A stretch of DNA of 60,234 nt from IMG/VR virus record IMGVR_UViG_3300037488_001588, positions 1 to 60,234 of that record; one strand, written 5' to 3'. The stretch is from a virus (taxonomy: Duplodnaviria > Caudoviricetes). A program made the position numbers and the translations under genes. This document shows, piece by piece, positions 13,662 through 50,574 of the stretch. The notes below the pieces were generated by a model. It made no database searches, had not been told where the DNA came from, and saw only the letters and a list, made by a program, of their open reading frames with translations. Position 1 is the first letter of the stretch. The number at the start of each line of letters is the position of its first letter.

Positions 13662-15248
13662 CTAGGAAATCGCCCCGTCAGACTCGGTGACGCGCATGTA
13701 CACCGTCCCCGCGCCCAATGTGGCAGCGTTGAGCGTCAGAACGGAGCCGATAGTGAGCGCCGCAGTCGATACATTCTGATACGCGCCGATGACACGAAAC
13801 GGGCCTCCGTGCTGGGCATTGTTGGTGAAGTAGAAAGTTGCAGTGTTTAGCGTTGATGCGTCGACAGTCGCCGTCAAAGTACTACTGGTGTTCTGCCCGA
13901 TGAGATAAGGAATATCGACTTCGATAGTCAAAATCGAGGTGGATAGACGGGGGGTGTAGGAGAAGCTGAACGGGAATGCCCCGATAGCCTTCATCGTGAT
14001 GTAGGCGGGGTTCAGCGCAACGGGCGCGCCGCTCGCGCGCTGGTAAGCGTAACACACCCAAGTTCCGCCACCCGACGAAACCAATATCGCGGTGTCGCCC
14101 GCCTGCGTCTGGATGTTGTTGCCGCCGTTTGGCAACCCAAGAACGCCGCTCTGAACAAGCGTCAAAGAGCCGCCAAAGTACACTATCCGCGTCGCGCCGA
14201 ATGCAATACTGTCAAACGCATTGATCGTCGTCGTCCCGGTGATATCAATATTGTTCGCGGGGGCTGCGCCGATTGCAGTCGTCGAAGCGCTCGCCACCGC
14301 CGCTTTGGTCCCGTTGATCGCGGCGCCCGTCATGGTGAGCGTGCTGCTGAGCGTGGCCCCGGCAGCCGTCAGCAGCCCGGTGGTCGTGAGGGCGTTCGTC
14401 GTCTTGTTGAACACCAGACCGGCGTCACCGCCAAACGCACCCGCATCGTTGAACTGGACCTGAGTGGTCGAGCCGCCCGGCACGGTGCCGACAGACGCCG
14501 TCGTCTGCGTCGTGTTGTCGGGGAACTTGATGCCGCCTGCCGTCGTGTAGATGACGCCCGCCACCGTCAGCAGCTCGGCGCCCAGTGTGGCCGTCCCGAT
14601 GCCCACCTTTGTGCCGCTCAGATAGAGGTTGTTCGAGCCGATGTTCACGCCGTTCGGGATCGCCATCGTGCCGGCGTTCACGGTGATGGCATCGCCTACA
14701 GCGTCTCCGAGCACCGTGGTGCCGGTCACGCTCAAGCCCGTGGTCGTGACGGTCGTGCCGTTGAAGACGAGGTTGGCGGAGCCCGCGAGCACGCCCGCGT
14801 TGTTGTACTGGATCTGGGTTGTCGACCCCGCCGCCACGGGAGACGTGTTGATGGCGAGGAACATGCCCGTCGCGGTGCCGTCGCACGTCACCAACGTGTT
14901 CTGCGCCGCCGGGATCGTGACAGCTGCGCCGCCGGCCAGACTGTCCATGGTGACCGCGAAGCCGCCGACCGTATCGTTGCGTGCGACCCAGAGACCGCCG
15001 ACGGCCGACGGCACGCGGTAATTGATGGCCGCCGTGGGCGTGCCGGTGAAGACGATCTTGAGGGGCTGGTACTGCGCCGTGACGAGCGTCACGTTGCCCG
15101 ACAAGCCCGTCGTGTTGATGCTCACCGATCCGCCGAGCGCGAGGTCGATGATGGCCCAGTCGTTGTTGACCGGGACGTCCCACGTATCGACGTAGTCGTT
15201 GAATGCCGGCTGTTCGATGCGCTTATTGGCGGTGTACGTCGAAACCAT
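13662..15248 (-). CDS. Tail fibre / virion structural protein
   Basis: 528 aa, Thr/Gly-rich; N-terminal STYT...E.PA.......W....N virion-attachment-type motif; two GSTTQ.Q.N.AG repeats; GGIKFPDNTTQTTA. Confidence 0.7.
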   Translation of the reverse strand: MVSTYTANKRIEQPAFNDYVDTWDVPVNNDWAIIDLALGGSVSINTTGLSGNVTLVTAQYQPLKIVFTGTPTAAINYRVPSAVGGLWVARNDTVGGFAVTMDSLAGGAAVTIPAAQNTLVTCDGTATGMFLAINTSPVAAGSTTQIQYNNAGVLAGSANLVFNGTTVTTTGLSVTGTTVLGDAVGDAITVNAGTMAIPNGVNIGSNNLYLSGTKVGIGTATLGAELLTVAGVIYTTAGGIKFPDNTTQTTASVGTVPGGSTTQVQFNDAGAFGGDAGLVFNKTTNALTTTGLLTAAGATLSSTLTMTGAAINGTKAAVASASTTAIGAAPANNIDITGTTTINAFDSIAFGATRIVYFGGSLTLVQSGVLGLPNGGNNIQTQAGDTAILVSSGGGTWVCYAYQRASGAPVALNPAYITMKAIGAFPFSFSYTPRLSTSILTIEVDIPYLIGQNTSSTLTATVDASTLNTATFYFTNNAQHGGPFRVIGAYQNVSTAALTIGSVLTLNAATLGAGTVYMRVTESDGAIS

Positions 15249-18200
15249 CAGATTGCCTCATGAGCAACGGCAAGGGCCTTGGCGACGGTCGCGTCAGGCA
15301 CGTTCAGGAACTGCTTTGTCTTCTCGCCGTGCGCGTTCTTGGCGCGCGCCGCGAAGCGGACGTACTTTGCGGCCTCGGCCGCGTGGTCGATCAGGTTCGT
15401 GAGACGCCCGCCGGACGCGCGTGTCTTGCGATCGTCGTCGGGCTGTTCGGCGCGCAGGGGTGCCAGAAGCGGGGCGAGCGCGGCGATGTTCGGCTTGCCC
15501 TCGTTGGTGATGGCACGCTCCAGAAGGGCCTTGCCCTTGACGGGATCGGCCATCGCCTCGGAGAGGATACGCTGCACACGCTTCTGGGCAGCGGCGCGCA
15601 TGGGGCCGCCCACCGCCTTGTCGAGCACGAGGCCCGTGGCGCCGAGAATGGATGCCCAGTTGCCGCTGAAGAGCGCGTGGCCGATGGTCGGCATGAAGAA
15701 CGCCGTCCATGTCATGTTGTCGATGTTGCCCTTCGTCATGTCGTCGAGCATGCCGTTGATCTTCGACGCGGTATCGGACCCGGTCGAGGCCGCCTTCCGG
15801 GTGGCGTGCTGTACGCCCCGATCGATGTCGTCCCCGAGCTTGGTCAGCGTGCCGTAGCCCTCGTCGCCGTAGAGCCTGCGCAGCGTCGTCTCGCGCTGCT
15901 GGATGAAGGGCGACATCTTGGGCGACAGGTTGCGCACACCCTGATCGCCGATCGCGACGTTGGAGAACTTGTTGACCAGCCACTCTGCCGTGGCGCGCCG
16001 CGCGCCTTCGAGCGCCGCAGGATCACCGCCGATGTCGTCGAGCAGGCGACCGACGCGCGTCGCACTGTCCTTCGAGTTCATGATGGCGCCTATTTCGCGC
16101 CCGAGATCTTCGGCGTTGTTGTACTTCAGGAAGTTGCCGGCATTGCCCTCGAAATCTCGAACCTTGCCGGCCTCGTCCTTTACGGTCTGCGCGACCGTCG
16201 AGGTGTGCTCCCGCTCGGCGTCGCGGATCGAAGCATCACGATCGCGGCCGGCCTGTCGCACGCCCGTGGTCTGCGCGCGCGAGGCGTCTTCGAGCGCCTG
16301 CGTTGCGGTGGCGACATCGTCGAAGCGGTTGGAGAAGCCGGGAGACAGCTCGTCGATACGGGCCAGAGCCGGGGCGTGGTCTCGCTTCCACGCCGCCAGA
16401 CGCTGCGGTGTGAGGCCGTCCTTGGCCGCGTCCACCAGAGATGCCGACGCGAGATCCTGTATGATGGGCAGCGCCTGCGGATCGTCACCGGCAGCCTTCA
16501 ACCACGCATTGAGGCTCTCGGCGCCCTCTGCACCCTTCTTGAAGATGCTGGCCGCGACGCGCGCGCCGGACTTCTTGAAGTCGCCCGCGAAGCCTGTCGT
16601 CTTCAAAGCGTCGCCGACGGGCCCTTGTCGGAAGGTCGTGACGCGATCGATGTGACGTTGCTTTGCGGCGTTGTATCGTTCGAGATCCTCGGGTGTAAAA
16701 TTCGGTACTCGTTCATCACCCGGGCGTACTCCGGATCCTCCTTCGCCTTCAGCTCCAGCCTGACGAGAAACCCCGGCCGCGCCCACGGAGGCATCGTTTC
16801 CAGCGTTCGCACGAGAGCTTGCCCGTGCGTTAGCCATATGCTCCCGTGCTTCGGCTGCAAGTTTCGCTCCTATGGTGTCTTCGACACGCATTGTACCAGC
16901 TTCGACACGCCGAGCCTCGTGCGCAATCTGGTTCTCCAGAGAATTGCGCAGCTCGGCTTGCACGAGATCCTTGAGCGCGACCAGCTGGCCGTGCGCGGTG
17001 CGATCGGTGTTTTTGAAGTCGGCCATTTTGGCCGTGATGGTCTTGTCCATCTTGGCCAGCGCACCGAACGATACGACAGGCGGCAGCGCCGCCACCATCT
17101 CGATGATGGGCTGGGCGCCGGTCTTGAGTTCAACCGACGGGTCGAAATTCTGCAGCAGCTCCCGAGCGCCGGCAGCGGCGTTGCCCGACACGACGTTGAG
17201 CTGGTTGTCAGGATCGACGGCGTTGTAGAGGCGCGTCACCTCGCCTCCGAGAGCCGTGTCTCGTGTGTCGGTGATATCGCGCATGGCGTCGCCTCGCGCC
17301 GAGCGATCGATGCCGGTCGGCAGGGGGCGCTGGTCGACGGCGTCCTGTGCCGTGCGAACGCCGGCTTCGAGGTTGGCCTGCGTCTGGTCGAAAGCCTGAT
17401 TGGCGCCCTGCACTTTGCCGTCGCGTGCCTTGGCAGCGGCGGCCTGTGCGTCGGCTGTTTCGAGCGCGAGACGGCTGTGCAGATCATTGAGCTGGGCGAC
17501 GTAGGCGTCGGCGATCGCCTTGGGGCTGGCCGCAGGATCCGCCATCGTGTTGAGAGCGGCGTGTCGGGCGGCCTGCTGCTCGCCACGGATGGCGTGCGTC
17601 TCAGCCGCGAAGCCCTTGTCGCGCATCTCCAGCTCGGCCTCGGCCTTGGCGAGCTTGGTATCGCCGGCCGCCTCGGCGGTCGTCATGCGCGTGCCGAGTT
17701 CGTTCGTCGTGCGCATGCCGCGCACCTTGTCGACGTCGCCGACGTTCTCCTTGAATACTGCGCCGGCCTTGTCCTGTCGGCTGTTCTCGAAAACGGAGGG
17801 GAAGCGCTTCGACGCGGCGTTGCCGGCGGCTCCGGCCGCTCCGGCCGCGAAGGGCGCGGCGATCATGCCGTACAGAGGGTCGCCCGTGGCATCGGTCACC
17901 GCCGACGCGGCACCGCCGCCGACGGCACCGGCCGCCATGAGCTTCGGAGAGGCGCCTGACTTCAGCACCGTCTTGGCGAGGTCGACGGCGGGCTTTGTTG
18001 CCACGCCGGCACCCTTCGTGACACCGGCCCTCATGCCGCCGCCGGGCGCGATCATGCTGATGCCGGCCTCGCCCGCATCCATGGCGTACCGTCCGAGTTT
18101 CGACTGCGGCTCGTACTCACCTGTCGTCTTGGCGATCTTCGACGAGATGTCGTGCCCGCTCGGCATGACGTCTGTGCTGGGGATGATGCTGAGCGCCTTG

Positions 18201-18550
18201 CCTACGATGCCGCTCTCGCGCTCGGCGCGCTTCTTGAACGCCTTGCCGCGAGCTTCCTGCACCTCCGGCGTATCGCCCGTGATGCCCTGCATCAGCCGCC
18301 GGCCAAGGTACTGCCCGCTCTCGCGCAGATCGCCGACCATGCCGGGGATGTGTGACAGGCCCTTGATGATCGTGGTCGGGATAGCCTTTGCGGTAGACGA
18401 AACCCAATCGTCGTCGGGCGCGTTGTCGAGAACACCGCGTGCCTGCGGAGGACCGGACTGCGGACCGGACGACAGGTCGAGCGCGGGCGTGTCGCTCGCC
18501 GGGGCCGGCGGTGTCGTGAAGGAGCTTAGGTCGATCTTATCGTCGGCCAT
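15248..18550 (-). CDS. Large internal virion (DNA ejection) protein
   Basis: 1100 aa, Ala-rich helical with Gly-zipper and hydrophobic segments; follows the SLT-bearing protein as in podovirus ejectosome operons. Confidence 0.65.
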   Translation of the reverse strand: MADDKIDLSSFTTPPAPASDTPALDLSSGPQSGPPQARGVLDNAPDDDWVSSTAKAIPTTIIKGLSHIPGMVGDLRESGQYLGRRLMQGITGDTPEVQEARGKAFKKRAERESGIVGKALSIIPSTDVMPSGHDISSKIAKTTGEYEPQSKLGRYAMDAGEAGISMIAPGGGMRAGVTKGAGVATKPAVDLAKTVLKSGASPKLMAAGAVGGGAASAVTDATGDPLYGMIAAPFAAGAAGAAGNAASKRFPSVFENSRQDKAGAVFKENVGDVDKVRGMRTTNELGTRMTTAEAAGDTKLAKAEAELEMRDKGFAAETHAIRGEQQAARHAALNTMADPAASPKAIADAYVAQLNDLHSRLALETADAQAAAAKARDGKVQGANQAFDQTQANLEAGVRTAQDAVDQRPLPTGIDRSARGDAMRDITDTRDTALGGEVTRLYNAVDPDNQLNVVSGNAAAGARELLQNFDPSVELKTGAQPIIEMVAALPPVVSFGALAKMDKTITAKMADFKNTDRTAHGQLVALKDLVQAELRNSLENQIAHEARRVEAGTMRVEDTIGAKLAAEAREHMANARASSRANAGNDASVGAAGVSRQAGAEGEGGSGVRPGDERVPNFTPEDLERYNAAKQRHIDRVTTFRQGPVGDALKTTGFAGDFKKSGARVAASIFKKGAEGAESLNAWLKAAGDDPQALPIIQDLASASLVDAAKDGLTPQRLAAWKRDHAPALARIDELSPGFSNRFDDVATATQALEDASRAQTTGVRQAGRDRDASIRDAEREHTSTVAQTVKDEAGKVRDFEGNAGNFLKYNNAEDLGREIGAIMNSKDSATRVGRLLDDIGGDPAALEGARRATAEWLVNKFSNVAIGDQGVRNLSPKMSPFIQQRETTLRRLYGDEGYGTLTKLGDDIDRGVQHATRKAASTGSDTASKINGMLDDMTKGNIDNMTWTAFFMPTIGHALFSGNWASILGATGLVLDKAVGGPMRAAAQKRVQRILSEAMADPVKGKALLERAITNEGKPNIAALAPLLAPLRAEQPDDDRKTRASGGRLTNLIDHAAEAAKYVRFAARAKNAHGEKTKQFLNVPDATVAKALAVAHEAI

Positions 18551-18551
18551 C

Positions 18552-24222: not shown

Positions 24223-24732
24223 TCAGTCCTTTTTAGGGCCGGGCAGGCGGGACAGCTTCTTGATGGTAGCGGCGCGAACCTGCTTCACGAAGTGGTCGAG
24301 GATCTGGTGTCCGTCGTCAAGCGAACCCTTGCCGATCCGCGTCACGGCCTCGGGCGAGATGACGTGCTCGCCGCCGGCCGCGATGATCTTGACCGATCCC
24401 GTGGAGCCACCGTCGGCTTTCATCGCTACACCGAGCGGTGTGCTTGGTGCCTTGTAGGGCGTGCCACTCGTGATGTCATCCGCGTCGAAGAGGGACTTGG
24501 CGACTTTGAAGCCGGCCATCGTGTTGCCCTCGCCGAGGGCGCTAATGATGTCGGCCGGCAGGACGTAGGAGCCCTCGCGGACCTCCATGGGAATGTGATC
24601 GGTGCGGCCGGCGACCGAGCTGTGGATCGGTCCGGCGTGCGTCTCGACCAGCTGCCTCACGGGCGACGCCTTCAGATTGAAGGGTCCGCCGGCAGCCTTC
24701 GCGATACGAAGGGCTTGAGCTGCGTGGTCCAT
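24223..24732 (-). CDS. Small protein with a duplicated AxGG...GExV module
   Basis: KAAGG...GRTDHIPMEVREGSYVLPAD and KADGG...VKIIAAGGEHVISPE; resembles the AxGG...D.IPA.LS.GE.V motif of tape-measure C-termini. Confidence 0.6.
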   Translation of the reverse strand: MDHAAQALRIAKAAGGPFNLKASPVRQLVETHAGPIHSSVAGRTDHIPMEVREGSYVLPADIISALGEGNTMAGFKVAKSLFDADDITSGTPYKAPSTPLGVAMKADGGSTGSVKIIAAGGEHVISPEAVTRIGKGSLDDGHQILDHFVKQVRAATIKKLSRLPGPKKD

Positions 24733-38764: not shown

Positions 38765-39049
38765 CTAGTGCGAGGAGCCGTCGGTCTTGCGTCCGGCCGG
38801 CGCATTGCCGACGCGGGCCGACGAGAACGGGCTGGCGTTGGAGCCGGTGCGCCCGCCGCTCTTGCGCGGCATGCGACCACCGTTTTTCATCGGCGCGTCG
38901 CCGTCCACCTTGCCGCCGCTCTTGCGAGCCTTGGCCGGTCCGGTGATCTTCGGCGCCTTGTTGCGCCCGACCGGCATCGGCTCGTGCTTCCAGTCCTTGT
39001 CGCCCTTGGCCGGACCCGAGGTGCCCGGACCCATCTTACGTCCCTTCAT
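38765..39049 (-). CDS. Small basic protein with three xKxGG motifs
   Basis: RKSGGKV, MKNGGRM, RKSGGRT; AGGAG RBS before ATG 39049. Confidence 0.65.
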   Translation of the reverse strand: MKGRKMGPGTSGPAKGDKDWKHEPMPVGRNKAPKITGPAKARKSGGKVDGDAPMKNGGRMPRKSGGRTGSNASPFSSARVGNAPAGRKTDGSSH

Positions 39050-40097: not shown

Positions 40098-40139
40098 AGT
40101 CGTATCCTTTCGACCGCCGTCAGTGGGCGGTTCTCAAGC

Positions 40140-41054: not shown

Positions 41055-41066
41055 GGGTGCGGCTCC

Positions 41067-41702: not shown

Positions 41703-41865
41703 GACGGACACTCCTCCTTGAGGAGAGCGTCGAAGTCATGCACCGGGCCGACTGTCGTCGCGAAAAATCGCGGAGTACGTCCCGAGACGCACTATGATCT
41801 GTTCCACGATGTCAGTGCATCAAACTGTTGTAAAGCGCGATATGAGGTACTATGACGTGTTGACC

Positions 41866-43864: not shown

Positions 43865-44254
43865 CTAGTACACGCTGTCGGGCGACGGGATGCGCAGCTT
43901 CACTGCCTCGTCGACGAGCATGCGGCACAAAGTACCGTTGATGTTGATAGGCCAGCCGTCGGATGGCCGGATCGCAATCCAGTCTCCGACTTGAGGTCCG
44001 CCTTCTGTGAAGTATCCCTCGGTCTGCGCGAACGCGACGGGGCCCATCTTCAATATAAGCGCTGCCTTACCTTGGTATTTATCTTCCCCTCGGGTGGTCT
44101 GTGTCAAGATGATGCCCTTGGCGGTCTTCTCAGGCCGCTCATAGATGCCGATCAGGACTTGGTTGTTGTAGAGGACGAAACCGTCGAGGTTTCCGAGCTT
44201 TTTCAGAAGATCCGAACGCGGATCCGTATCATGGCGCATAGCCATCGATGACAT
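43865..44254 (-). CDS. groES: Phage co-chaperonin (GroES/Cpn10-like)
   Basis: VLI...ERPEKTAKGIILT mobile loop, ILKMGP.A, VGDWI, R.L.D. Confidence 0.85.
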   Translation of the reverse strand: MSSMAMRHDTDPRSDLLKKLGNLDGFVLYNNQVLIGIYERPEKTAKGIILTQTTRGEDKYQGKAALILKMGPVAFAQTEGYFTEGGPQVGDWIAIRPSDGWPININGTLCRMLVDEAVKLRIPSPDSVY

Positions 44255-44560: not shown

Positions 44561-46453
44561 CTACCTCAAGTTAGCTTTTTCCAGTCTGCCCAATCCGCCC
44601 CCGGAGCCGCCGATCTTGTTCATGCCGAGACGTCCGCCTCGTGCCCGCATCGGCGGGCCCCCACCACCCATGCCAGCCATCATCGACGGAGGTGGCATGT
44701 TGGGCGGCGGTGCGCCCGGCGGCGGGCCTTGCGGCGGCATCGGAGGGGGAGGAAGCGGCATCGGAGGCGGCGGTGCCGGGATCGGACCCGGCATCGGCGG
44801 CTTGTCGTTCGCGTCCTTGCTCGGGTTCACGATGATGTTGATGTTGGTCTTGCCCTTGGTGCGGCCACCGCTCTTGCGCTCGGCGCGACCGCCTTTTTTG
44901 CGCCCGTAGCGCGCGACCATATTAGCTTCAGAATCTTCCCTATCCGCGGCCAAAGCGGCTGCATCTGCGCGTTCCATTCGCGGAAAATTTTTGGCTTCTG
45001 CCTTCCGCTGAGCGTAATCAAGTTTGCCCATACGGGCTACTTCTGACCCCCCAACGCGGCGCGGGTACATGCCCTGTCTGTCGTCAACGCGGTTGACCGC
45101 GTCTGCCAGTACATCGCCGCCGCCGGCCTTCGGCATGCGGTCGCCGGTCGGGCGTGTGCCGCCGTAGTAGGTGCCGCCGCCGCTCTTGTAGCCGCCGATG
45201 CTTTCGGCCTTCATCAGCGCGTCGAGGTTCTTGTACTTGGGCGCGCGCGGCGCGTCCAAATAGATGTCGGGGTAGCGGGGCTCACGCGACGGCGGCGGCG
45301 GCATATCTTCGTAGTTGTCAGTCGAAGATTTGCCGGGTCCGTAACCGCGCGTCGGGGCGTCGCCGGGGATGGCCTTCTTGTCCATGCCGCCGCCGACCTG
45401 CTTCTTGGTGCGGCCGCTCTTCCCCACGCCGCCACCATTTTTCTTTGTTCCCAGACCGTTAATGGCCGGGAAGAACCCTCTCTGGCTGTTCTCAGGGCGG
45501 CCTGTTGCCTGCCCGCCGCCCTTGGTGTCGGGTCCGCGTGTGGGAGCGTCGCCGGGGATAGCTTTTTGAGGCGGCGGCGCGTCCTCATAGGGCGTCTTGT
45601 CGGCCGGGCCGCCGACCTGCTTCTTGGTGCGGCCGCCCTTCTTCATGCCGCTTTCTTTTGAGTTGACGCCGAGCATGGCGTCGTAATCACCGCGCTCCAA
45701 ATCCCGCAACGCGCGAGGATCGGAGCGATCCGTCCTGTCCCTGATGAACGGCGGCGACAGCTCGCGCGGCGCGCGCCGCTCGGCGCGATACACATAGGTG
45801 GCATCTTTGAGGTTTCGGCCGTCGTCCAAGGTGTCGTTTATGCGGCGATTCATCGCCTTTGCCTCCCCCGCCGTCATGCCGCCGCCGCCCTGTTTCTCGG
45901 CGCGCTTCATGGCGGTCGGCTTGACCATCTTCCGGACCATCGCCTTGTCTTCGGCGGCATCGTCGTGGACCTTCCCGCCCTTCTTCATCTGGCTGTTCTT
46001 CACGGCGTTGGCGTGAGCGGAAGCACCGTCGTCGCCGCCCGATCCGCCGCCTTCGATCAGCTTCTTGCCCATCATGATGGGCGAGAGCATCTCAAGGGCG
46101 CCGATACCGCCGCCGCCTTCCTTGCGGGTGCGTCCGCCCTTCTTCATGCCGCCGACATGCGGCGAGCCGAACTTGTCACGGTTGGCCTGCTTGGTGTCCC
46201 TCGTCGAGATCTCGTCGGCGACGTTGCCCCGGGACTTCTTGTCGGCCCTGCGCGGCCCCCGATCGCCCTGAATGCGCCCGCCCAGCTTGTAGGCGCGGGG
46301 GCTGACCGGCCGCATGCCGGTCTTCTTGGTCGAGTTCATGTTGGTCGGCTGCTCGTAGGAGCTGGCGTCGACCTTGCCTGCACTCTGGCCGGACGAAAGA
46401 CGCTTGGCCTTGGCGCGCATGGCGGCCCGGGCAGACTTTGAGGCCTCGCTCAT
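44561..46453 (-). CDS. Basic low-complexity protein punctuated by about 15 xxxGG motifs
   Basis: 630 aa; YKLGG, MKKGG x3, KQVGG x2, KKNGG, YKSGG, RKKGG, RKSGG, RARGG and others; Pro-rich C-terminus. Confidence 0.8.
   Translation of the reverse strand: MSEASKSARAAMRAKAKRLSSGQSAGKVDASSYEQPTNMNSTKKTGMRPVSPRAYKLGGRIQGDRGPRRADKKSRGNVADEISTRDTKQANRDKFGSPHVGGMKKGGRTRKEGGGGIGALEMLSPIMMGKKLIEGGGSGGDDGASAHANAVKNSQMKKGGKVHDDAAEDKAMVRKMVKPTAMKRAEKQGGGGMTAGEAKAMNRRINDTLDDGRNLKDATYVYRAERRAPRELSPPFIRDRTDRSDPRALRDLERGDYDAMLGVNSKESGMKKGGRTKKQVGGPADKTPYEDAPPPQKAIPGDAPTRGPDTKGGGQATGRPENSQRGFFPAINGLGTKKNGGGVGKSGRTKKQVGGGMDKKAIPGDAPTRGYGPGKSSTDNYEDMPPPPSREPRYPDIYLDAPRAPKYKNLDALMKAESIGGYKSGGGTYYGGTRPTGDRMPKAGGGDVLADAVNRVDDRQGMYPRRVGGSEVARMGKLDYAQRKAEAKNFPRMERADAAALAADREDSEANMVARYGRKKGGRAERKSGGRTKGKTNINIIVNPSKDANDKPPMPGPIPAPPPPMPLPPPPMPPQGPPPGAPPPNMPPPSMMAGMGGGGPPMRARGGRLGMNKIGGSGGGLGRLEKANLR
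45389..45636. repeat. 29-bp exact direct repeat at 45389-45417 and 45608-45636
   Basis: GCCGCCGACCTGCTTCTTGGTGCGGCCGC, encoding GRTKKQVGG. Confidence 0.9.
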
Positions 46454-49400
46454 GCGGGTGCTCCTTTGTGGACGAGCTGTAGCGCCCGATCGACGATCGA
46501 CCGGCCGTTGGCTGGTGTGTCAGTTTTACCACGAAGAAGTCGCTTCCGAAAGACGCCGGCCTCCCCGCGATTGGCGGCGCCGCCCGCCGCGCGGGTCAGC
46601 CGGGTTTTTTCGCGGAGCTTTTTGGCGAACTCTTCTTCAAGTTCTTGCCCAGCACGACCGAGTTCGGCTGTGGGATCTCTTTTGAGGAGGTCGACCAGCC
46701 GTGATTTATAAGCTTGCCCATGATTGTCCTCATTCCAGTCGTTGCGGGCCTTCATGATCTCCGCTTCATGCATCTTGGCATGAACATCGAACGGAAGACT
46801 TTCCGCCATGCGTCGTATAGGCCCTTCTACGGCATCATTCAAGATCTTCATGGTCCCTGTGCCGCCCCTGTCGATCAGGGCCCTGATGCCGACCTTGCCG
46901 TCTACCGTGCGAATGGGCTGGTAGCCCTGAAAGAGCGCTTTTTTGGTGCCTTTCAGGGGGTCGGCATCCATGACTTTACCCCAGAAATCACGCAAACCCT
47001 CGTCCGTGTGGAGATTGTGATCTCCATCGGCGATGAAATCGACCGCAAAGCCCTTCGGGGCCGACGTCACGGGCTTCACACTGTTCGACCACACCTCGGT
47101 TTGCTGCAAAAGGTGCCCGAGAGCGTTCGAGGCGATCTCGGCGCCCTCTTTCGTGGCCAGCGCCTGACCCACGGTCGACGGGTTCTGATACTGCTGCCAG
47201 CCGCCCGTGCCGTGGACGATGTCGCGGACGTCGATGCCGGCCAGTTTCGATGCATGCTCGATCGCTTTCTGCGTCATGTGGTGCGTCAGCTCGTACTGAT
47301 CGGCCGGCGCGAGCTTTGCGAAGGCATCTCCGTACTTCTTGTGCCAAGGCGAGCCTTCCCCGGGCGCCAGCTCCATTGAGATGCGTCGCATGTTCCGGTC
47401 AAGACCGCTTACGACATCGTCTGCCTGATTGGCCGTGAGCTTCGTCATGCCCATCCAGCCGACAGCCTGCACTTCCATTGGCGTCCAGTCGTTACGGCCC
47501 TGCCAGTTTATGTTGTTCAGATGCTCCGTGATCTGCTGCCCAAACTGCGCGCGGTTTTCGTACTGTGTCTCGCTCGGAGACCCCGCCATGTCGACCCTGA
47601 TTCGGGCGATGTCCTCCGCATTGTACCCGAGCCGCGTCAGGTGATTGATCAATTTCTGATCCACGATACCTGTATCGCGCGCGGTGTGGACATCGACCAC
47701 GAAGGGCTTGCCGCCATCGGGATGGTTCGCCATCCACGACCGCACGTCCTTGCCCTCGGCTGAGTCCACGAAATCGGAGATCTTCTGCCCGACGCCCGTG
47801 ATCGGCCTCTTGGCGATGACGGATCGGGCAGCCGCCGTCGGGTTCGGCATGCCTGCGGCACGCATCTGGTCTTCTGGGACGCCTCGGTTCATCTGCTCCT
47901 TCTGCAGGAGGACGTTGTTCATGGCGCCGCTGACGTCGACATTCTGTTGCGTCACCAACCAGCCGCGCATGTACTCCTTGGCCCTCTCCGCGTCGCCGTG
48001 CGTTTGCTGGAGGAACGTGTCGTAGACTTTTTGGTACCACCCGGATGCGTCACGAATTTCGGCAGGTTCTAGGATATTTTCGTGCCGACGAACCCAGTCT
48101 TCTGGCGTGATACGACCAACCACGAAATCGGGCTTCTTCTTCGGGACGATGCCAGTGGTCGGATCGGGACTCGGTTCGGGGGCCCGAATAACGGTGCGCG
48201 GATTGGCGGGCATGCCGGGCGCATCCTCTCCCGATTGCGTGGCTTTCGCGGCTCGTGCCAGCTTCAGGCGTAGACGTTCCGCTGCCGGGGCTCTCGGAAA
48301 GATCAGACCGCGATCGGCATTGGCCTGCATGACCTGTTCGGACTGAGCTTGCGGCGTGGTCGATAGACTGTGAACGGTAGTCATCGGATCAACCGGTTGC
48401 CTCACAGGCCTTGGCGCCTGTGTCTGCAGGATCTGCTGCGCCTGCTGCACTACAGGGTGCTCGTCGGGCACTATCTGCAGAGCTTGCGATACGATGCCGG
48501 TATCGTTGGGTGGCACGGAACCTCCTCTGGCGTACGCCGTCTGGCCCTTCAGGATGCTGGCGCGCATCTTGGGGGTGATATCGATCGAGTGTAGCTTGGC
48601 GTCCTCGACATTGTCGCGGGCGTAATCATTTCGGTAGCCCATGCGCTCCTGCCGAGACATGCCGCCCCACACACGCGATGACAGCTCGTGATGCTGGCGG
48701 ATGTCTTCGTCGTTGACCTTGGACATGTCGGGTTCGACACGAACCGGATGTGTGTGCAGCTTCACCTCGGCCGACGGGTCGTGCTTCTTCACCAGCTTCT
48801 GCAGCGCAGACGGCACGATCTTGTCGTAGTAGCCCTTCATGCCCTCGCCGCCGACCTTGAGGTCGAGACCTTCGTACGTGCGGTTGTGCGCGCCGCGCGC
48901 CGGATCCGCTGCCTTGTGATCCGCGATGATCTTCTCCGCGAGATCCTTGCCGATGTGCCTGTGCAGCTCCTCGAACGGCACCGAGTCGCCGCCGACCTCG
49001 TGGTAATCGTTTGCACCCTTCGGGCGAACGGCCAGCTCGACGTGCCCCGGCTTGCTTGGTCGGCTCGTCGTGTAGATCGCGTCAACCTGCTTGCTGAGAT
49101 CGTACCGCTTGGCCTGCTCCTCGCCCGGCGTGATCAGCAGCTTGTCGTAGCCGCCCTTGGCGGCCTCGTGCAGCGCCCGCTTCAGCCCGAGGTCGGTCCA
49201 CTTCGCGGTGCTGTCGACGTAGGGCGCGCGCGGCACGCCGGCACTTTCCTCGCGTACAGCCGCGTGACCTTCCGCCGCCTGCTGGCTGCCGAAGCCGCCC
49301 GAGAAAGAGCCGTCGGGCCATGTGACTTTCCACAGGCCGTGTTCTTGGGGTTCCACTTTCCCCGGCTCCCGTTTGTCGTCGCGGAAACCCGTCTCCCGTC

Positions 49401-50574
49401 CTTGCTGCCCCCAGTCGCTCTGCAGCTCCTCCAGATGCAGCGCCTTGCCGCCGCCCGGCAGCTTGCGATCGCTGAGACGGAGGTGGGCGAGGACGTTGGG
49501 CTCGTCCCAGTGGCTGGATCGGTAGTTGTTCGCGCCCGCTTCACGGTTGCTCTGTTCTGCTTTGTCCTGCAGCTCGTCATGCCGCATGAGCGCCTGCGCG
49601 TACGCTGTCCGCATGTCCGACCTGTTCGGCGCGTTCGCTTCGTTGGCCTGTCGCAACGCCGAGAAGGCGTCCGCCTTGGCGCGGCGTGCCTGTTCGAGAT
49701 CCGCCAATACCTTACGATGCTCGTCGGCGGATGCCGGCGGCATGTGCATCAGCAGCTCGCGGTAGTTCTCACCGCCGGGCAGTGTCTTATCCTCGAACTT
49801 GGGTGCTGTGTTGCGCCCAATACCGCCAAGTTGCGTCTCCTGCACGTTCGGCAGGCCGCTCCTGAAGTGCTGCACGACCTCGTCTCGCGTCACCATCGGC
49901 TTGGCGCCCAGCTTCTCGTCGAAGCCGCTCCACTTCAGCTCGTCGGGCTTCACGCCCTTGTTCAGGAGCGTCGACCGGACCTGCGCAGGTGGTGCCTGCT
50001 GCTGGAGGGCCGTCTGCGCGATCTGGGCGGCGTGGCTGTAGAGGCCCTGCTGGTTCAGGTCGGGCGGCGTGTCGACAGCACCGCCGTCGGCGTAGGCGGT
50101 GTCGGTCTGCTGGTAGGCCGACGGCAGGTAGATGTCCCTTGCCGGCATGCCGCGTTGCTGCGCGGACCACACCAGCTGCCGATATTTCCCGGCGTACAGC
50201 GTGCCCGGTTTGTTCAGCAGCCCGGCCGCATTCTCGTAGCTGGAAGGCTTGTCGGGCCACGCTCTAGTGTAGCTGTCGGGGTGCGTATCGTTGGCGTGAG
50301 ACACCAAGGAGTACAGCTCGGGGTCGTCGCTCGCGTCAAACCCACCGTCCCGCCCGTTCCCCGGCTGTGTAACGCGCATCGCGCCTGACTTGATGAGATT
50401 CTCGGCGTTCAGCGGAGGATATGTACCCACTGCGGGGTCGCTGAAGTACTCGTTCGAGGGGCGAACCTCGCCGCCGTCGGCGTAGCGACCGGTCGTCGAG
50501 ACCACGCGCTTCGCGCGCTTGTAGGGGTCGCGCGCGGTGAGAAGCGCGGCGCGTGCGGCCTTGCTACTGTCCAT
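46450..50574 (-). CDS. Large modular (polyvalent-like) protein with YAxGG-delimited domains
   Basis: 1374 aa; LPGGENYRELL...HWDEPNVLAHLR...EELQSDW...KRALHEAA.GGYD domain; second domain with WY...KISDF...VVDVH...QAVGW. Confidence 0.75.
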   Translation of the reverse strand: MDSSKAARAALLTARDPYKRAKRVVSTTGRYADGGEVRPSNEYFSDPAVGTYPPLNAENLIKSGAMRVTQPGNGRDGGFDASDDPELYSLVSHANDTHPDSYTRAWPDKPSSYENAAGLLNKPGTLYAGKYRQLVWSAQQRGMPARDIYLPSAYQQTDTAYADGGAVDTPPDLNQQGLYSHAAQIAQTALQQQAPPAQVRSTLLNKGVKPDELKWSGFDEKLGAKPMVTRDEVVQHFRSGLPNVQETQLGGIGRNTAPKFEDKTLPGGENYRELLMHMPPASADEHRKVLADLEQARRAKADAFSALRQANEANAPNRSDMRTAYAQALMRHDELQDKAEQSNREAGANNYRSSHWDEPNVLAHLRLSDRKLPGGGKALHLEELQSDWGQQGRETGFRDDKREPGKVEPQEHGLWKVTWPDGSFSGGFGSQQAAEGHAAVREESAGVPRAPYVDSTAKWTDLGLKRALHEAAKGGYDKLLITPGEEQAKRYDLSKQVDAIYTTSRPSKPGHVELAVRPKGANDYHEVGGDSVPFEELHRHIGKDLAEKIIADHKAADPARGAHNRTYEGLDLKVGGEGMKGYYDKIVPSALQKLVKKHDPSAEVKLHTHPVRVEPDMSKVNDEDIRQHHELSSRVWGGMSRQERMGYRNDYARDNVEDAKLHSIDITPKMRASILKGQTAYARGGSVPPNDTGIVSQALQIVPDEHPVVQQAQQILQTQAPRPVRQPVDPMTTVHSLSTTPQAQSEQVMQANADRGLIFPRAPAAERLRLKLARAAKATQSGEDAPGMPANPRTVIRAPEPSPDPTTGIVPKKKPDFVVGRITPEDWVRRHENILEPAEIRDASGWYQKVYDTFLQQTHGDAERAKEYMRGWLVTQQNVDVSGAMNNVLLQKEQMNRGVPEDQMRAAGMPNPTAAARSVIAKRPITGVGQKISDFVDSAEGKDVRSWMANHPDGGKPFVVDVHTARDTGIVDQKLINHLTRLGYNAEDIARIRVDMAGSPSETQYENRAQFGQQITEHLNNINWQGRNDWTPMEVQAVGWMGMTKLTANQADDVVSGLDRNMRRISMELAPGEGSPWHKKYGDAFAKLAPADQYELTHHMTQKAIEHASKLAGIDVRDIVHGTGGWQQYQNPSTVGQALATKEGAEIASNALGHLLQQTEVWSNSVKPVTSAPKGFAVDFIADGDHNLHTDEGLRDFWGKVMDADPLKGTKKALFQGYQPIRTVDGKVGIRALIDRGGTGTMKILNDAVEGPIRRMAESLPFDVHAKMHEAEIMKARNDWNEDNHGQAYKSRLVDLLKRDPTAELGRAGQELEEEFAKKLREKTRLTRAAGGAANRGEAGVFRKRLLRGKTDTPANGRSIVDRALQLVHKGAPA

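What the first reader, a model, noticed from the sequence alone, without database searches (positions are those of the whole stretch)
15248..50574. Genome-wide xxxGG motif in six virion-region proteins: candidate polyprotein-processing or capsid-cargo system
Seen: about 30 copies by eye of [Y/M/R/K/L/A]-[A/K/R/Q/S]-x-G-G, often followed by R/K/x then V/T/L. They lie in six genes: 46450-50574 (YADGG x2, YARGG, RAAGG), 44561-46453 (about 15, e.g. YKLGG, MKKGG, RKSGG, RARGG), 38765-39049 (3), 24223-24732 (KAAGG, KADGG), 18552-23717 (KAGGG, ARDGG, LSHGG, AARGG, LATGG) and 15248-18550 (RASGG). They sit in linkers at domain boundaries and I did not notice them in portal, capsid or terminase. Known: di-glycine is the cleavage site for ubiquitin-like, adenoviral and double-glycine leader proteases, and phage heads often process internal proteins; I recognised no prohead protease here. 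Inference: a shared tag that either directs proteins into the procapsid or marks cuts that release separate effector domains on maturation or injection.
Basis: partly seen in the sequence, partly recalled or inferred. Interest (0 to 1): 0.85.

Follow-up and report, generated by a model that had tools for sequence, protein, structure and literature searches.

The report
Shared glycine-glycine linker motif in phage cargo
The proteins this phage carries inside its head and shoots into the host share a short conserved glycine-glycine motif in their flexible linkers, most likely a cutting mark, and two of three known cut sites in lambda, T5 and P22 injected proteins lie just before such a pair.

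Summary
The window is a whole 60,234-bp podovirus-like phage genome. Inside the window alone only the 630-aa disordered protein is clearly significant. Relatives carry the case. In 130 representatives of that disordered family the motif occurs 872 times against 80-87 expected. In 21 post-portal polyvalent proteins [YF][AK]xGGx[VAI] occurs 35 times against 0.4, and 0 times in 105 control proteins. In 39 ejection proteins [YF]AxGG occurs 45 times against 5.5.

The motif sits in low-confidence linkers, flanks Pfam domains, brackets inserted cargo domains and adjoins conserved terminal helices. Codons vary, so selection acts on the protein.

Published cut sites in T5 pb2 (R|AEGG) and P22 gp7 (E|KGG, by host OpdA) lie 1-2 residues before a GG, and lambda gpH is cut in its glycine-rich region.

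Best reading (about 0.42): a processing site used by a host or unknown protease. Docking motif and passive hinge remain rivals. No cleavage was shown here.

The parts
46450..50574 (-). 1374-aa post-portal cargo (polyvalent-type) protein
   Evidence: Follows the SU10-type portal. Residues 159-740 are homologous to a module in post-portal proteins of relatives that also carry ART-PolyVal, GP88 or InPase. No Pfam hit of its own at E<=0.01.
50527..50565 (-). N-terminal amphipathic helix of the 1374-aa protein (aa 4-16)
   Evidence: A similar N-terminal pattern is present in 16 of 21 polyvalent proteins against 5 of 105 controls (the regex was made after looking).
50464..50484 (-). motif YADGGEV (aa 31-37)
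50074..50094 (-). motif YADGGAV (aa 161-167), N-terminal flank of the conserved module
   Evidence: GG is invariant in 8 of 8 aligned orthologous modules. pLDDT<50. In MW202675.1 the gene is split just here.
48514..48534 (-). motif YARGGSV (aa 681-687), C-terminal flank of the conserved module
   Evidence: G526, G527 and V529 of alignment A3 are invariant. pLDDT<50.
48466..48498 (-). internal copy of the terminal-type helix (aa 693-703)
   Evidence: Homology with L004 ends near aa 738.
46573..46593 (-). weak motif RAAGGAA (aa 1328-1334)
   Evidence: conservation not examined
46465..46503 (-). C-terminal helix of the 1374-aa protein (aa 1358-1370)
   Evidence: The last 33 aa are 82% identical to the tail of an otherwise unrelated 1395-aa protein in L001. 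Same pattern in 11 of 21 polyvalent proteins against 1 of 105 controls.
44561..46453 (-). 630-aa disordered Gly/Lys/Arg/Pro-rich protein with 11 motif copies
   Evidence: GG 37 against 15.5 expected. Family of 739 representative clusters. Motif 872 against 80-87 expected in 130 representatives.
46271..46291 (-). motif YKLGGRI (aa 55-61), invariant first copy
   Evidence: G58 and G59 invariant in 13 of 13 aligned N-termini
46127..46147 (-). motif MKKGGRT (aa 103-109)
46106..46126 (-). motif RKEGGGG (aa 110-116)
45968..45988 (-). motif MKKGGKV (aa 156-162)
45626..45646 (-). motif MKKGGRT (aa 270-276)
45425..45445 (-). motif KKNGGGV (aa 337-343)
45170..45190 (-). motif YKSGGGT (aa 422-428)
45110..45130 (-). 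motif KAGGGDV (aa 442-448)
44882..44902 (-). motif RKKGGRA (aa 518-524)
44858..44878 (-). motif RKSGGRT (aa 526-532)
44627..44647 (-). motif RARGGRL (aa 603-609) in the conserved C-terminal tail
   Evidence: The tail after the Pro-rich tract is conserved across the family.
38765..39049 (-). 94-aa basic protein with three motif copies
   Evidence: Homologues in 5 loci carry 3-7 RKxGG-type copies.
38906..38926 (-). motif RKSGGKV (aa 42-48)
38870..38890 (-). motif MKNGGRM (aa 54-60)
38846..38866 (-). motif RKSGGRT (aa 62-68)
24223..24732 (-). 169-aa internal protein (p169): carrier module of unknown fold
   Evidence: 65 homologues in loci L047-L125. 622 longer forms, some with inserted ART, nucleotidyltransferase or methyltransferase domains bracketed by the motif. 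No fold match.
24679..24699 (-). motif KAAGGPF (aa 12-18) directly after the N-terminal helix (aa 2-13)
   Evidence: The helix plus KAxGG is conserved in the family consensus. pLDDT<50 for residues 15-26.
24400..24420 (-). motif KADGGST (aa 105-111), followed 10 aa later by the GGEHVISPEAV strand
   Evidence: G109 is nearly invariant. pLDDT<50 for residues 86-110. Same order of elements as in lambda gpH and T5 pb2 C-terminal regions; the hhalign support is weak.
18552..23717 (-). 1721-aa ejection protein with an internal S74 self-cleaving domain and an SLT transglycosylase domain
   Evidence: Pfam Peptidase_S74 at 426-474 and SLT at 1061-1155. [YF]AxGG occurs 45 times against 5.5 expected in 39 family members.
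21546..21566 (-). motif ARDGGRV (aa 718-724), first half of a doublet
   Evidence: The doublet xRGGR[VTI]G-x-xxGG recurs in polyvalent and ejection proteins of relatives.
21522..21542 (-). motif LSHGGGA (aa 726-732), second half of the doublet
21270..21290 (-). motif AARGGRV (aa 810-816), first half of the second doublet
21246..21266 (-). motif LATGGSQ (aa 818-824), second half of the second doublet
15248..18550 (-). 1100-aa internal/ejection protein
   Evidence: Only its last ~60-130 aa are conserved in 8 loci.
15401..15421 (-). motif RASGGRL (aa 1044-1050)
   Evidence: An R[AK][ST]GGR site about 55 aa from the C-terminus in 9 of 9 family members, window included.
15251..15292 (-). C-terminal helix ATVAKALAVAHEAI (aa 1087-1100)
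   Evidence: Present in 9 of 9 family members.

Best explanation
The motif (aromatic or basic)-[Ala/Lys]-x-Gly-Gly-x-[Val/Ala/Thr] is a conserved short linear motif. It lies in the disordered linkers of every protein class that this phage lineage packs into the head and ejects: the polyvalent effector protein after the portal, a long disordered basic protein, a small basic protein, the 169-aa carrier, the transglycosylase ejection protein and the 1100-aa protein.

It most likely marks proteolytic processing sites. Cuts next to the GG would do three things:
- remove the short terminal amphipathic helices, which are the likelier packaging addresses;
- free the individual effector domains;
- chop the disordered protein into basic peptides of about 8-90 residues.

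The phage seems to encode no protease for this. The enzyme would therefore be a host peptidase, as OpdA is for P22 gp7, or a still unknown activity, as for lambda gpH and T5 pb2.

Shown here: the motif, its enrichment, its conservation, its linker position and the protein-level selection on it.
Inferred: that it is cut, where, when and by what.
For: 1. Conservation and enrichment far beyond composition.
- Disordered family, 130 representatives at no more than 50% mutual identity: [RKYFLM][KA]xGG 872 against 80+-10 (global shuffles) or 87+-10 (local shuffles); 128 of 130 have at least 3 copies.
- Polyvalent set, 21 proteins: [YF][AK]xGGx[VAI] 35 against 0.4; 0 in 105 control head proteins.
- Ejection family, 39 proteins: [YF]AxGG 45 against 5.5; 0 in the nozzle, GNAT, fibre and adaptor families.

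2. Both motifs that flank the conserved module are invariant in 8 of 8 orthologues while the neighbouring linker residues vary.

3. Position.
- pLDDT is below 50 at the motifs.
- 16 of 38 Pfam boundaries have a motif within 30 aa, against 7.1 expected; 2 sites lie inside domains, against 18 expected.

4. Cargo domains inserted into the 169-aa carrier are bracketed by motif copies, in one case by a duplicated PHKAAGG. One relative has the gene split exactly at the motif.

5. Synonymous codons differ between copies, and Gly codon use is 71% GGC in motifs against 65% overall. The constraint is therefore on the protein.

6. Precedents.
- T5 pb2 is cut after R1127 (PMC10038345, passages read). In the T5 record this reads FVPR|AEGG.
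- Mature P22 gp7 starts Lys-Gly-Gly-Lys-Gly after host OpdA removes 20 residues (PMC8402733 and PMC4992974, passages read; record note and sequence).
- The chance that both cuts lie 1-2 residues before a GG is about 4e-4 (a post hoc test).
- Lambda gpH loses about 14 kDa from its glycine-rich C-terminal region, with site and enzyme unknown (PMC12617516, passages read). That region holds HFATGG and GYATGG. A cut at F733|A734 would leave a 79.7-79.8-kDa gpH* and a fragment of about 12.5 kDa.

7. Terminal helices next to the motif resemble the removable capsid targeting sequence of T4 internal proteins (PMC3012670, passages read).
Against: - No cleavage was observed; all of this is sequence inference.
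- No protease family or fold was found in the 50 ORFs scanned or in the two folded proteins. There is no HExxH in the 1374-aa protein.
- The host is unknown, so a host enzyme cannot be checked.
- OpdA is an oligopeptidase (my recollection). It could reach sites near termini but hardly linkers deep inside 1000-aa proteins.
- The two mapped cuts differ in register (two residues before GG in T5, one in P22) and in the residue before the cut (R, E). One enzyme or one rule is therefore not established.
- Deleting the P22 gp7 leader costs little (60% burst; PMC8402733).
- The motif is kept 5 residues from a C-terminus after a gene split, where a cut site would have no use.
- The N4 virion RNA polymerase, a polyvalent protein, is packaged unprocessed (PMC5512222, passage read).
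- The similarity of the 169-aa protein to lambda gpH is weak (hhalign E 0.0086, probability 4.7%) and absent for T5.
- Within the window alone the signal outside the 630-aa protein does not survive multiple-test correction.
- Counts in related proteins are not independent.
Confidence: 0.42

Rival explanations
1. Docking motif. The GG motif is a multivalent binding site, not a cut site. It holds cargo proteins to the scaffold, the capsid inner surface, the portal or the DNA during assembly. The disordered protein, with 7-20 copies, acts as a glue or condensing agent that leaves with the DNA.
For: - The many copies, with variable number and position but a conserved consensus, are typical of multivalent linear motifs.
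- In the disordered and small basic proteins the flanks are strongly basic: R/K at -3, -2 and +1. The inter-motif segments carry +0.137 net charge per residue.
- The motif persists at a C-terminal end after a gene split.
- In P22 the scaffold recruits the ejection proteins (PMC4992974 and PMC8402733, passages read).
Against: - In polyvalent and ejection proteins the flanks are often acidic or neutral (YADGGAV, KAEGGAV), so DNA binding cannot be the shared function.
- One tag per protein would be enough for docking, yet the motif brackets nearly every domain.
- No partner was identified.
Confidence: 0.22
2. Passive hinge or linker cassette. The motif is a favoured flexible joint, with an aromatic anchor plus a Gly-Gly swivel. 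It lets multidomain proteins pack, unfold and thread through the portal and tail channel. It travels with domains when they are shuffled between phages. It is neither cut nor specifically bound.
For: - The motif always lies in low-confidence linkers, at shuffling junctions of mosaic proteins and at both sides of inserted domains.
- It occurs only in proteins that must pass the channel.
- Glycine-rich junctions as swap points are known from T-even adhesins (my recollection; not looked up).
Against: - A mere hinge does not need an invariant aromatic/Ala/Val context kept across orthologues of 37-62% identity to the window protein, or a tenfold excess of one consensus.
- Codon variation argues against maintenance through DNA-level recombination.
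- It does not explain why two mapped natural cuts fall next to such sites.
Confidence: 0.2
3. Modification site. The motif is recognised by an enzyme that modifies the neighbouring Lys or Arg, for instance the conserved GNAT encoded between the 169-aa and 1721-aa genes, or the ART domains of the polyvalent proteins.
For: - A GNAT gene (23723-24220) is conserved in 56 related loci inside the ejection module.
- ART-PolyVal domains occur in 14 of 27 post-portal proteins of relatives, one of them below the curated cut-off.
- Lys is frequent at -2 and Arg at +1.
Against: - Ala replaces Lys at -2, and Glu/Ala replace Arg at +1, in the polyvalent and ejection proteins. No modifiable residue is therefore constant.
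Confidence: 0.04
4. Chance or composition. High G+C and Gly-rich, low-complexity sequence produce the pattern by accident.
For: - The genome is about 64% G+C.
- Outside the 630-aa protein the in-window excess is not significant after correction.
Against: - Composition-preserving and local shuffles never reach the observed counts in any family.
- The motifs are invariant in orthologues.
- There are zero copies in 105 control proteins of the same loci.
Confidence: 0.02

Closest known systems
P22 ejection protein gp7 leader removal by host oligopeptidase A (OpdA)
   Same: - An injected virion protein loses a short N-terminal peptide (20 aa).
- The cut lies one residue before Gly-Gly: the mature end is Lys-Gly-Gly-Lys-Gly (PMC8402733 passages).
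- The enzyme is a host one, so the phage needs no protease gene.
- In the window phage the 169-aa, 1374-aa and many related proteins have a 12-35-aa N-terminal helix followed by [A/K]xGG.
   Different: - P22 has one such site in one protein. Here there are dozens, in six protein classes, mostly internal and far from termini.
- P22 gp16 and gp20, and T7 gp13-16, show no excess of GG.
- The host, and the presence of OpdA in it, are unknown for this phage.
C-terminal processing of tape measure proteins: T5 pb2 to pb2*/pb2C and lambda gpH to gpH*
   Same: - These are proteins that leave through the tail before the DNA.
- T5 is cut at R1127|AEGG (PMC10038345 passages).
- Lambda is cut in a glycine-rich region that contains HFATGG and GYATGG (PMC12617516 passages).
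- The order AxGG, then 10-14 residues, then a G-E-x-V strand is shared with the 169-aa protein.
- No enzyme is known in either phage.
   Different: - These are siphovirus tail proteins, with one or two sites per protein.
- Homology to the window proteins is not established (hhalign E 0.0086 at 4.7% probability for lambda, nothing for T5).
- The lambda cut site has not been mapped.
T4 internal proteins: capsid targeting sequence plus prohead protease gp21
   Same: Diverse anti-host cargo proteins share only a short conserved terminal peptide that takes them into the prohead (PMC3012670 passages). That peptide is removed by cleavage (my recollection).
   Different: - T4 encodes its own prohead protease, cuts after Leu/Ile-x-Glu (recalled) and has the tag only at the N-terminus.
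- Here no protease gene was found, the motif is GG-based, and the helices occur at both termini.
Polyvalent proteins of phages and conjugative elements (Iyer et al. 2017, PMC5512222)
   Same: - Large multidomain effector proteins encoded beside the portal.
- ART-PolyVal, InPase and other listed domains occur in the relatives.
- Processing into separate domains was predicted.
   Different: - The paper proposes zincin-like metallopeptidase domains within the proteins as the processing enzymes (passages read). None is detectable in this lineage.
- A word search of the paper's main text found 0 uses of 'linker' or 'glycine'; the 14 uses of 'motif' were read only in part, and none of the passages shown concerned a linker.
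Gly-Gly cleavage sites of adenovirus protease, ubiquitin-like protein proteases and double-glycine leader peptidases
   Same: A Gly-Gly pair preceded by a hydrophobic or basic residue, in an exposed, flexible segment.
   Different: - As I recall, those enzymes cut after GG with the hydrophobic residue three positions before the cut site's P1 (LxGG, (M/I/L)xGG). Here it lies one residue further away.
- The two mapped phage cuts fall before the GG.
- No cysteine protease of those clans was found by Pfam, PHROGs or NCBIfam.

Membership tests
Polyvalent proteins (Iyer et al. 2017) | Large multidomain protein encoded in the head module next to the portal | tested here: met
   The 1374-aa ORF overlaps the portal stop codon region (46450-50574 and 50564-52891). 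The same position is held by 300-1650-aa proteins in the related loci.
Polyvalent proteins (Iyer et al. 2017) | Carries effector domains typical of the class (ART-PolyVal, InPase, LPD domains and others) | tested here: inconclusive
   The window protein has no Pfam hit at E<=0.01. Its residues 159-740 form a module shared with relatives that carry ART-PolyVal, GP88 or DUF7178. Its last 33 aa match the tail that follows an InPase domain in L001. The module model resembles GNAT-fold enzymes (best Z 10.2, rmsd 2.9, 140 aligned).
Polyvalent proteins (Iyer et al. 2017) | Zincin-like metallopeptidase (HExxH) domain predicted to process the protein | tested here: not met
   No HExxH, HExxxH or HxxEH in the window protein. 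In 6 relatives the only HExxH-type motif in the shared module is HEAAH (some carry other matches elsewhere), and it reads HEAAK in the window. No peptidase Pfam apart from the cell-wall M15 in one relative.
T4-type capsid targeting sequence with prohead protease | Phage-encoded prohead protease | tested here: not met
   No protease family in 50 ORFs scanned with Pfam, 28 with PHROGs and 13 with NCBIfam. The scaffold-like 277-aa and the 177-aa, 214-aa and GroES-like proteins show no catalytic signature in alignments. Not all small ORFs were folded.
T4-type capsid targeting sequence with prohead protease | Short conserved terminal peptide shared by otherwise unrelated cargo proteins | tested here: met
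   N-terminal helix pattern in 16 of 21 polyvalent proteins against 5 of 105 controls. C-terminal pattern in 11 of 21 against 1 of 105 (post hoc regex). Present in 9 of 9 C-termini of the 1100-aa family. Its function as an address was not tested.
OpdA-processed ejection protein leader (P22 gp7 type) | Short N-terminal leader followed within 1-2 residues by Gly-Gly | tested here: met
   The 169-aa protein has KAAGG at aa 12-16 and the 1374-aa protein has YADGG at 31-35. GG lies within the first 40 aa in 14 of 21 polyvalent proteins, against 21 of 105 controls.
OpdA-processed ejection protein leader (P22 gp7 type) | Cleavage by host oligopeptidase A | not testable with these tools
   The host is unknown. 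The only genome-collection hit is a 2.3-kb contig of a metagenome bin.
Tape-measure C-terminal processing module (lambda gpH, T5 pb2) | Sequence homology to the gpH or pb2 C-terminal region | tested here: inconclusive
   hhalign of the 169-aa family against gpH 700-853: E 0.0086, probability 4.7%, 32 columns at 41% identity. Against pb2 1100-1219: no relevant match. BLASTP gives 10 of 18 identities.
Tape-measure C-terminal processing module (lambda gpH, T5 pb2) | Cut site next to an AxGG element | tested here: met
   This holds for the known members only. In T5, R1127|AEGG. In lambda the site is unmapped but the region contains FATGG and YATGG. Cleavage in the window proteins is not testable here.
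Adenain, ubiquitin-like protease or double-glycine leader cleavage sites | Cognate cysteine protease encoded nearby | tested here: not met
   None found by Pfam, PHROGs or NCBIfam.
Adenain, ubiquitin-like protease or double-glycine leader cleavage sites | Hydrophobic residue at P4 with Gly-Gly at P2-P1 (consensus recalled, not from a call) | tested here: not met
   The logos place the aromatic or basic residue three positions before the first Gly. That is P5 if the cut were after GG.
Peptidase_S74 intramolecular chaperone (self-cleaving) domain, in the 1721-aa protein only | Pfam match above the curated cut-off, with Ser and Lys five residues apart at its start | tested here: met
   PF13884: E 1.2e-5, 26.0 bits against a cut-off of 22, residues 426-474. 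The sequence reads F-S426-D-E-R-L-K431. The Ser-Lys dyad rule is recalled. Self-cleavage itself was not tested.

The most novel reading that the evidence does not exclude
A common maturation code for proteins that leave a tailed phage through its channel. A cut 1-2 residues before a Gly-Gly, in the context (aromatic or basic)|[Ala/Lys]-x-Gly-Gly, is made by a conserved host peptidase or by a confined self-reaction rather than by a phage protease. The same rule would then explain four things:
- the long-unmapped lambda gpH to gpH* cut (predicted at F733|A734);
- T5 pb2 processing;
- P22 gp7 leader removal;
- in a large uncultivated podovirus clade, the release of effector domains from polyvalent proteins and the dicing of a disordered protein into basic peptides.
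Probability: 0.15. Interest if true: 0.85.

Novelty: new variant of a known kind. Interest (0 to 1): 0.66.

Why it matters
Phage heads deliver proteins as well as DNA. How cargo is addressed, stored and released is known for only a few model phages.

This work defines a simple, strongly conserved linker motif and companion terminal helices. They are shared by all internal protein classes of a large, uncultivated podovirus lineage:
- 739 representative clusters of the disordered protein alone;
- at least 599 related viral contigs.

It ties the motif to two mapped cut sites and one unmapped cut in classic phages. A 2025 paper still calls the lambda gpH cut site and its enzyme unknown (PMC12617516, passages read).

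If the motif is a processing site, three things follow:
- it gives a testable prediction for lambda;
- it explains how polyvalent proteins without a peptidase domain could be taken apart;
- it offers a portable cassette (helix plus motif) for loading foreign proteins into capsids and releasing them.

If it is not cut, it is still a defined linear motif that marks ejected proteins in metagenomic phage genomes.

Tried and rejected
Searches for a protease
- Pfam on 50 window ORFs, PHROGs on 28 and NCBIfam on 13: no peptidase.
- PDB sequence search with the 1374-aa protein: 0 hits at E<=1.
- HExxH scan: none in the window protein.
- AlphaFold model of the conserved module (pLDDT 60.9). Foldseek against PDB gave nothing at E<=0.001. 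VIA-align gave GNAT-like matches up to Z 10.2 and helical hairpins, but no protease.
- AlphaFold model of the 169-aa protein (pLDDT 73.6). Foldseek against PDB gave nothing. The VIA-align best was Z 3.9, on the C-terminal helix only. BFVD gave only uncharacterised uncultured phage proteins.
- Alignments of the 214-aa, 277-aa and 177-aa head-module families showed no catalytic pattern.

Other lines that led nowhere or were rejected
- ESM Atlas look-up of the module: best score 0.85, unnamed clusters only.
- DNA-level explanation (recombination signal): rejected because codons vary.
- GroEL-binding mimicry of the GroES mobile loop: considered, because a GroES-like gene is adjacent, and dropped, because the residue after GG is mostly charged rather than hydrophobic. 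The GroES loop sequence was recalled, not fetched.
- Homology of the 169-aa protein to T5 pb2: none.
- Host clue from prokaryotic genomes: one 2.3-kb contig only.
- Cultured relatives: none. The portal's only close relative (59.5% identity) and the 169-aa protein's only hit in GenBank phages is the uncultured MW202675.1; cultured phages match the portal at 24-32% identity only.
- Earlier notes of this scan: nothing found.
- Literature searches for a described GG linker motif in ejection or polyvalent proteins found none. This covers only the open-access library searched.

Complex prediction
- The job (scaffold with the N-terminal 75 aa of the disordered protein) was never accepted because the queue was full. 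The docking idea is therefore untested.

Technical

Full report
**What the window is.**
The 60,234-bp window is the entire assembly, at about 64% G+C. It is a podovirus-like phage. The minus strand from about 54.8 kb down to 13.7 kb encodes, in order:
- large terminase;
- an SU10-type portal;
- a 1374-aa protein;
- a 630-aa Gly/Lys/Arg/Pro-rich protein;
- a 71-aa ORF;
- a GroES-like protein;
- a coiled-coil scaffold-like protein with a C-terminal helix-turn-helix;
- a 177-aa protein;
- an HNH homing endonuclease on the other strand;
- a 214-aa protein;
- the major capsid protein (true frame 40140-41054);
- a 345-aa protein;
- a 94-aa basic protein;
- fibre-like proteins and an endolysin;
- an SU10-type adaptor and a 707-aa nozzle-like protein;
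- a 116-aa protein and a 169-aa protein;
- a GNAT;
- a 1721-aa protein with Peptidase_S74 and SLT domains;
- an 1100-aa protein;
- a fibre.

The closest GenBank phage is an uncultured 61-kb genome, MW202675.1. Cultured phages match the portal at only 24-32% identity.

**The observation inside the window.**
- It never occurs in portal, capsid, terminase, scaffold, nozzle or adaptor.
- The pattern and the genes were picked by eye, so I also counted every 3-residue pattern without prior choice.
  - K.GG is the strongest non-proline pattern in the six genes (19 against 4.45; Bonferroni 0.011).
  - Once the 630-aa protein is removed, the best related pattern (A.GG, 19 against 7.6) is not significant after correction.
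- The window alone therefore proves the motif only for the 630-aa protein (GG 37 against 15.5 expected). For the 94-aa protein (three RK/MK-x-GG copies) it is only suggestive.

**Relatives settle it.**
A portal-based scan of viral contigs gave 45 loci. A nozzle-based scan gave 599 confirmed stretches, of which 79 loci were kept. I dropped six near-duplicate loci (L003, L028, L033, L036, L040, L043) from the first set. I dereplicated families by identical 50-60-aa ends.

- *Disordered protein.*
  - All 15 homologues examined keep many copies, although they align only over their ends.
  - A profile of the N-terminal 75 aa finds 739 representative clusters (E<=0.001) in 1.84 billion proteins, always at the N-terminus.
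  - In the 130 of the best 150 that are at least 250 aa long, [RKYFLM][KA]xGG occurs 872 times, against 80+-10 or 87+-10 in shuffles.
  - The median is 7 per protein, and 128 of 130 have at least 3.
  - Spacing has a median of 35.5 aa, with peaks at 5-9 and 20-39.
- *Post-portal proteins.*
  - 20 of 27 have Pfam domains of the polyvalent-protein class: ART-PolyVal in 14 (one below cut-off), GP88 in 4, InPase in 3, DUF7178 in 3, and M15, GNAT and methyltransferase in single proteins.
  - In 21 of them, window included, [YF][AK]xGGx[VAI] occurs 35 times against 0.4+-0.7.
  - It occurs 0 times in 105 terminase, portal, GroES-like, scaffold and other head proteins of the same loci.
- *Ejection protein with SLT.* In 39 dereplicated members [YF]AxGG occurs 45 times against 5.5+-2.0. 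It occurs 0 times in the nozzle (39 members), GNAT (36), fibre (22) and adaptor (38) families.
- *1100-aa family.* 9 of 9 C-termini hold R[AK][ST]GGR about 55 aa from the end.
- *169-aa family.* KAxGG follows a conserved N-terminal helix and precedes the last strand.

Looser patterns such as [AKR]xGGx[VIA] also score in the control families, because one conserved site is counted in many orthologues. Counts in related proteins are not independent. The representative set is the cleanest.

**Consensus.**
Logos from the disordered and polyvalent sets agree on the frame:
- three residues before the first Gly: an aromatic or basic residue (Y or F enriched 2.7-5.6-fold; R 26-32% in the disordered family);
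- two before: Lys or Ala;
- then any residue, then Gly-Gly;
- the next residue is R or K in the basic proteins, and E, A or S elsewhere;
- then Val, Ala or Thr (Val enriched about 4-fold).

Doublets of the form xRGGR[VTI]G-x-xxGG recur in polyvalent and ejection proteins.

**Where it sits.**
- In the alignment of the module shared by eight post-portal proteins, the motifs at both ends are invariant (G6, G7; G526, G527, V529), while the adjoining linker residues vary and carry indels.
- The AlphaFold model gives pLDDT below 50 for residues 1-22 and 520-542, which hold these motifs. The model of the 169-aa protein does the same for 15-26 and 86-110.
- In 15 proteins with near-complete Pfam matches:
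  - 16 of 38 domain boundaries have a motif within 30 aa outward, against 7.1+-2.3 for random placement (1 of 5000);
  - 2 of 85 motif sites lie inside domains, against 18.0+-3.7 (0 of 5000). Adjacent regex hits are counted twice in the 85.
- In MW202675.1 one gene ends five residues after a motif, and the next gene begins where the window protein continues after its second YADGG.
- Longer relatives of the 169-aa protein (622 at E<=0.001) carry ART, nucleotidyltransferase or methyltransferase domains inserted between motif copies. In one case the inserted domain sits between two copies of PHKAAGG.
- Copies in the window use different synonymous codons, and their Gly codon use matches the genes' average. 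The constraint is therefore on the peptide, not on the DNA.

**Companion signals.**
The same proteins share short amphipathic helices at their ends.
- An N-terminal pattern of the type ..RRALMIAR occurs in 16 of 21 polyvalent proteins against 5 of 105 controls.
- A C-terminal pattern of the type ..IVDRALxL occurs in 11 of 21 against 1 of 105 (the regex was written after looking).
- The pattern occurs 7 times in the window proteome against 1.1 expected.
- The helices often touch a motif: helix then KAxGG at N-termini, and xGGRxx then helix at C-termini.
- The last 33 aa of the 1374-aa protein are 82% identical to the tail of an otherwise unrelated 1395-aa protein.
- The N-terminal helix of the disordered family looks similar by eye but does not match the regex (0 of 13).

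**Is there a protease?**
None was recognised.
- Family scans of 50 ORFs found no peptidase.
- The 1374-aa protein has no HExxH and no PDB sequence relative.
- Its conserved module resembles GNAT-fold enzymes with a helical hairpin. The best VIA-align rows are Z 10.2 (rmsd 2.9, 140 aligned) and Z 10.0. Foldseek's weak top rows were FemX and FemA.
- The 169-aa protein has enzyme-like invariant residues (R43, T44, D45, H46, E68, N70, E122, H142, D146) but no known fold.
- The only self-cleaving element is the Peptidase_S74 domain inside the 1721-aa protein (F-S426-D-E-R-L-K431). It would separate the N-terminal 425 residues from the rest by a different mechanism.

**Precedents.**
- *T5.* The tape measure protein pb2 is cut after R1127 (PMC10038345, passages). 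In the T5 record this is FVPR|AEGG, followed 12 residues later by G-E-H-G-T-E-V-V.
- *P22.* The record states that the N-terminal 20 aa of injection protein gp7 are removed by host OpdA. The mature end is Lys-Gly-Gly-Lys-Gly (PMC8402733, passages). The sequence reads SYPE|KGGKGG.
- *Chance.* The fraction of positions followed by GG at that distance is 0.0082 in pb2 and 0.054 in gp7, so the joint chance is 4e-4. This test was made after the fact.
[quoted passage not shown] - That region holds HFATGG (GG at 736-737) and GYATGG (GG at 781-782).
  - A T5-like cut at F733|A734 gives fragments of about 79.7 and 12.6 kDa.
  - gpH 754-771 matches the 169-aa protein in 10 of 18 residues, but profile comparison is weak (E 0.0086, probability 4.7%).
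- *No general excess.* T7 gp13-16 and P22 gp16 and gp20 show no GG excess, so the motif is not universal among ejection proteins.

**Reading.**
The motif is a functional linear motif of ejected proteins. The systematic bracketing of every domain, the adjacency to removable-looking terminal helices and the natural cuts next to such sites make 'processing site' the best single explanation (about 0.42). The enzyme would be supplied by the host or still be unknown.

Weaknesses of that reading:
- there is no direct evidence of cleavage and no enzyme;
- OpdA-type oligopeptidases should not reach internal linkers (my recollection of the enzyme);
- the T5 and P22 cuts differ in register;
- the P22 leader is nearly dispensable (PMC8402733);
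- the motif persists at a C-terminus after a gene split;
- N4's polyvalent RNA polymerase is packaged whole (PMC5512222).

A multivalent docking role (0.22) and a passive hinge that travels with shuffled domains (0.20) are not excluded. The three could also coexist. The complex prediction that might have tested docking to the scaffold was never accepted by the queue.

**Verdict.**
- The kind is known (maturation and targeting signals of phage internal proteins), but this motif, its breadth and the apparent lack of a phage protease make it a new variant.
- I found no description of it in four literature searches or in a word search of the main text of the polyvalent-protein paper, within the open-access library only.

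Noticed in passing
window 22248-22472 (aa 416-490 of the 1721-aa protein, 18552-23717, minus strand): A Peptidase_S74 intramolecular-chaperone (self-cleaving) domain sits inside the ejection protein instead of at a fibre C-terminus. It has Ser426 and Lys431 at its start. It follows a Gln/Ala/Gly-rich 415-aa region that matches stand-alone 'DNA ejection protein' families (phrog_4287). It would split the protein by itself.
   Followed up: partly
window 46465-46503, 50527-50565, 48466-48498, 24694-24729, 15251-15292: Short amphipathic helices (types ..RRALMIAR at N-termini and ..IVDRALxL at C-termini) are shared by otherwise unrelated internal proteins and their relatives. They are likely address tags for packaging. 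One internal copy in the 1374-aa protein suggests a past gene fusion.
   Followed up: partly
window 48475-50100 (aa 159-700 of the 1374-aa protein): The conserved module of the post-portal proteins models as a GNAT-like fold with a long helical hairpin. VIA-align gives Z 10.2 to the ICL2 C-terminal domain and Z 8.1-8.5 to the AtaT and TacT tRNA-acetylating toxins. Foldseek's weak top rows are FemX and FemA. It may be an injected acyl- or aminoacyl-transferase effector.
   Followed up: partly
window 23723-24220 (minus strand): A GNAT acetyltransferase gene lies between the 169-aa and 1721-aa genes and is conserved in 56 related loci at 45-88% identity. PhiKMV-like phages have a GNAT (Rac) that triggers cleavage of the host RNA polymerase alpha subunit (PMC7552054, passages read). 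No link was tested.
   Followed up: no
window 41794-42381 (plus strand): An HNH_3 homing endonuclease gene is inserted on the opposite strand in the middle of the head module, between the 177-aa and 214-aa genes. Relatives lack a gene there.
   Followed up: no
window 40120-41109 and 40140-41054 (minus strand): The longest ORF here (329 aa, Arg/His-rich) is a wrong frame. The 304-aa ORF in another frame is the capsid-like protein, conserved as a 304-aa ORF in relatives.
   Followed up: partly
window 43865-44254 (minus strand): A GroES-like co-chaperonin (phrog_3188, E 1.5e-7) with a mobile-loop-like segment is found in all 15 related loci that reach that position, between the disordered protein and the scaffold.
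   Followed up: partly
window 44561-44800 (C-terminal 80 aa of the 630-aa protein): A Pro/Met-rich tract is followed by a family-wide conserved tail: PRKxGGR, then YRSYKDMDAG-type residues in most relatives, then GSGLGRLEK. The variable middle lies between the conserved N-terminal 75 aa and this tail.
   Followed up: partly
loci L004, L009, L010 (post-portal proteins); database proteins P0112 and relatives of the 169-aa protein (L077, L089, L099, L110): Two further short conserved elements occur in linkers of relatives: GHNGGPP, and an insert of about 40 aa reading GLYANIHAK...MRKPG...GAPT that lies between two motif copies.
   Followed up: no
window 42429-42962 (minus strand): The 177-aa head-module protein has an Arg-rich N-terminus in relatives and an invariant PDGWxYxWK...GWxxV...RHP core. 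It has no family or known function. The longer 321-aa ORF call overlaps the scaffold gene and is probably too long.
   Followed up: partly
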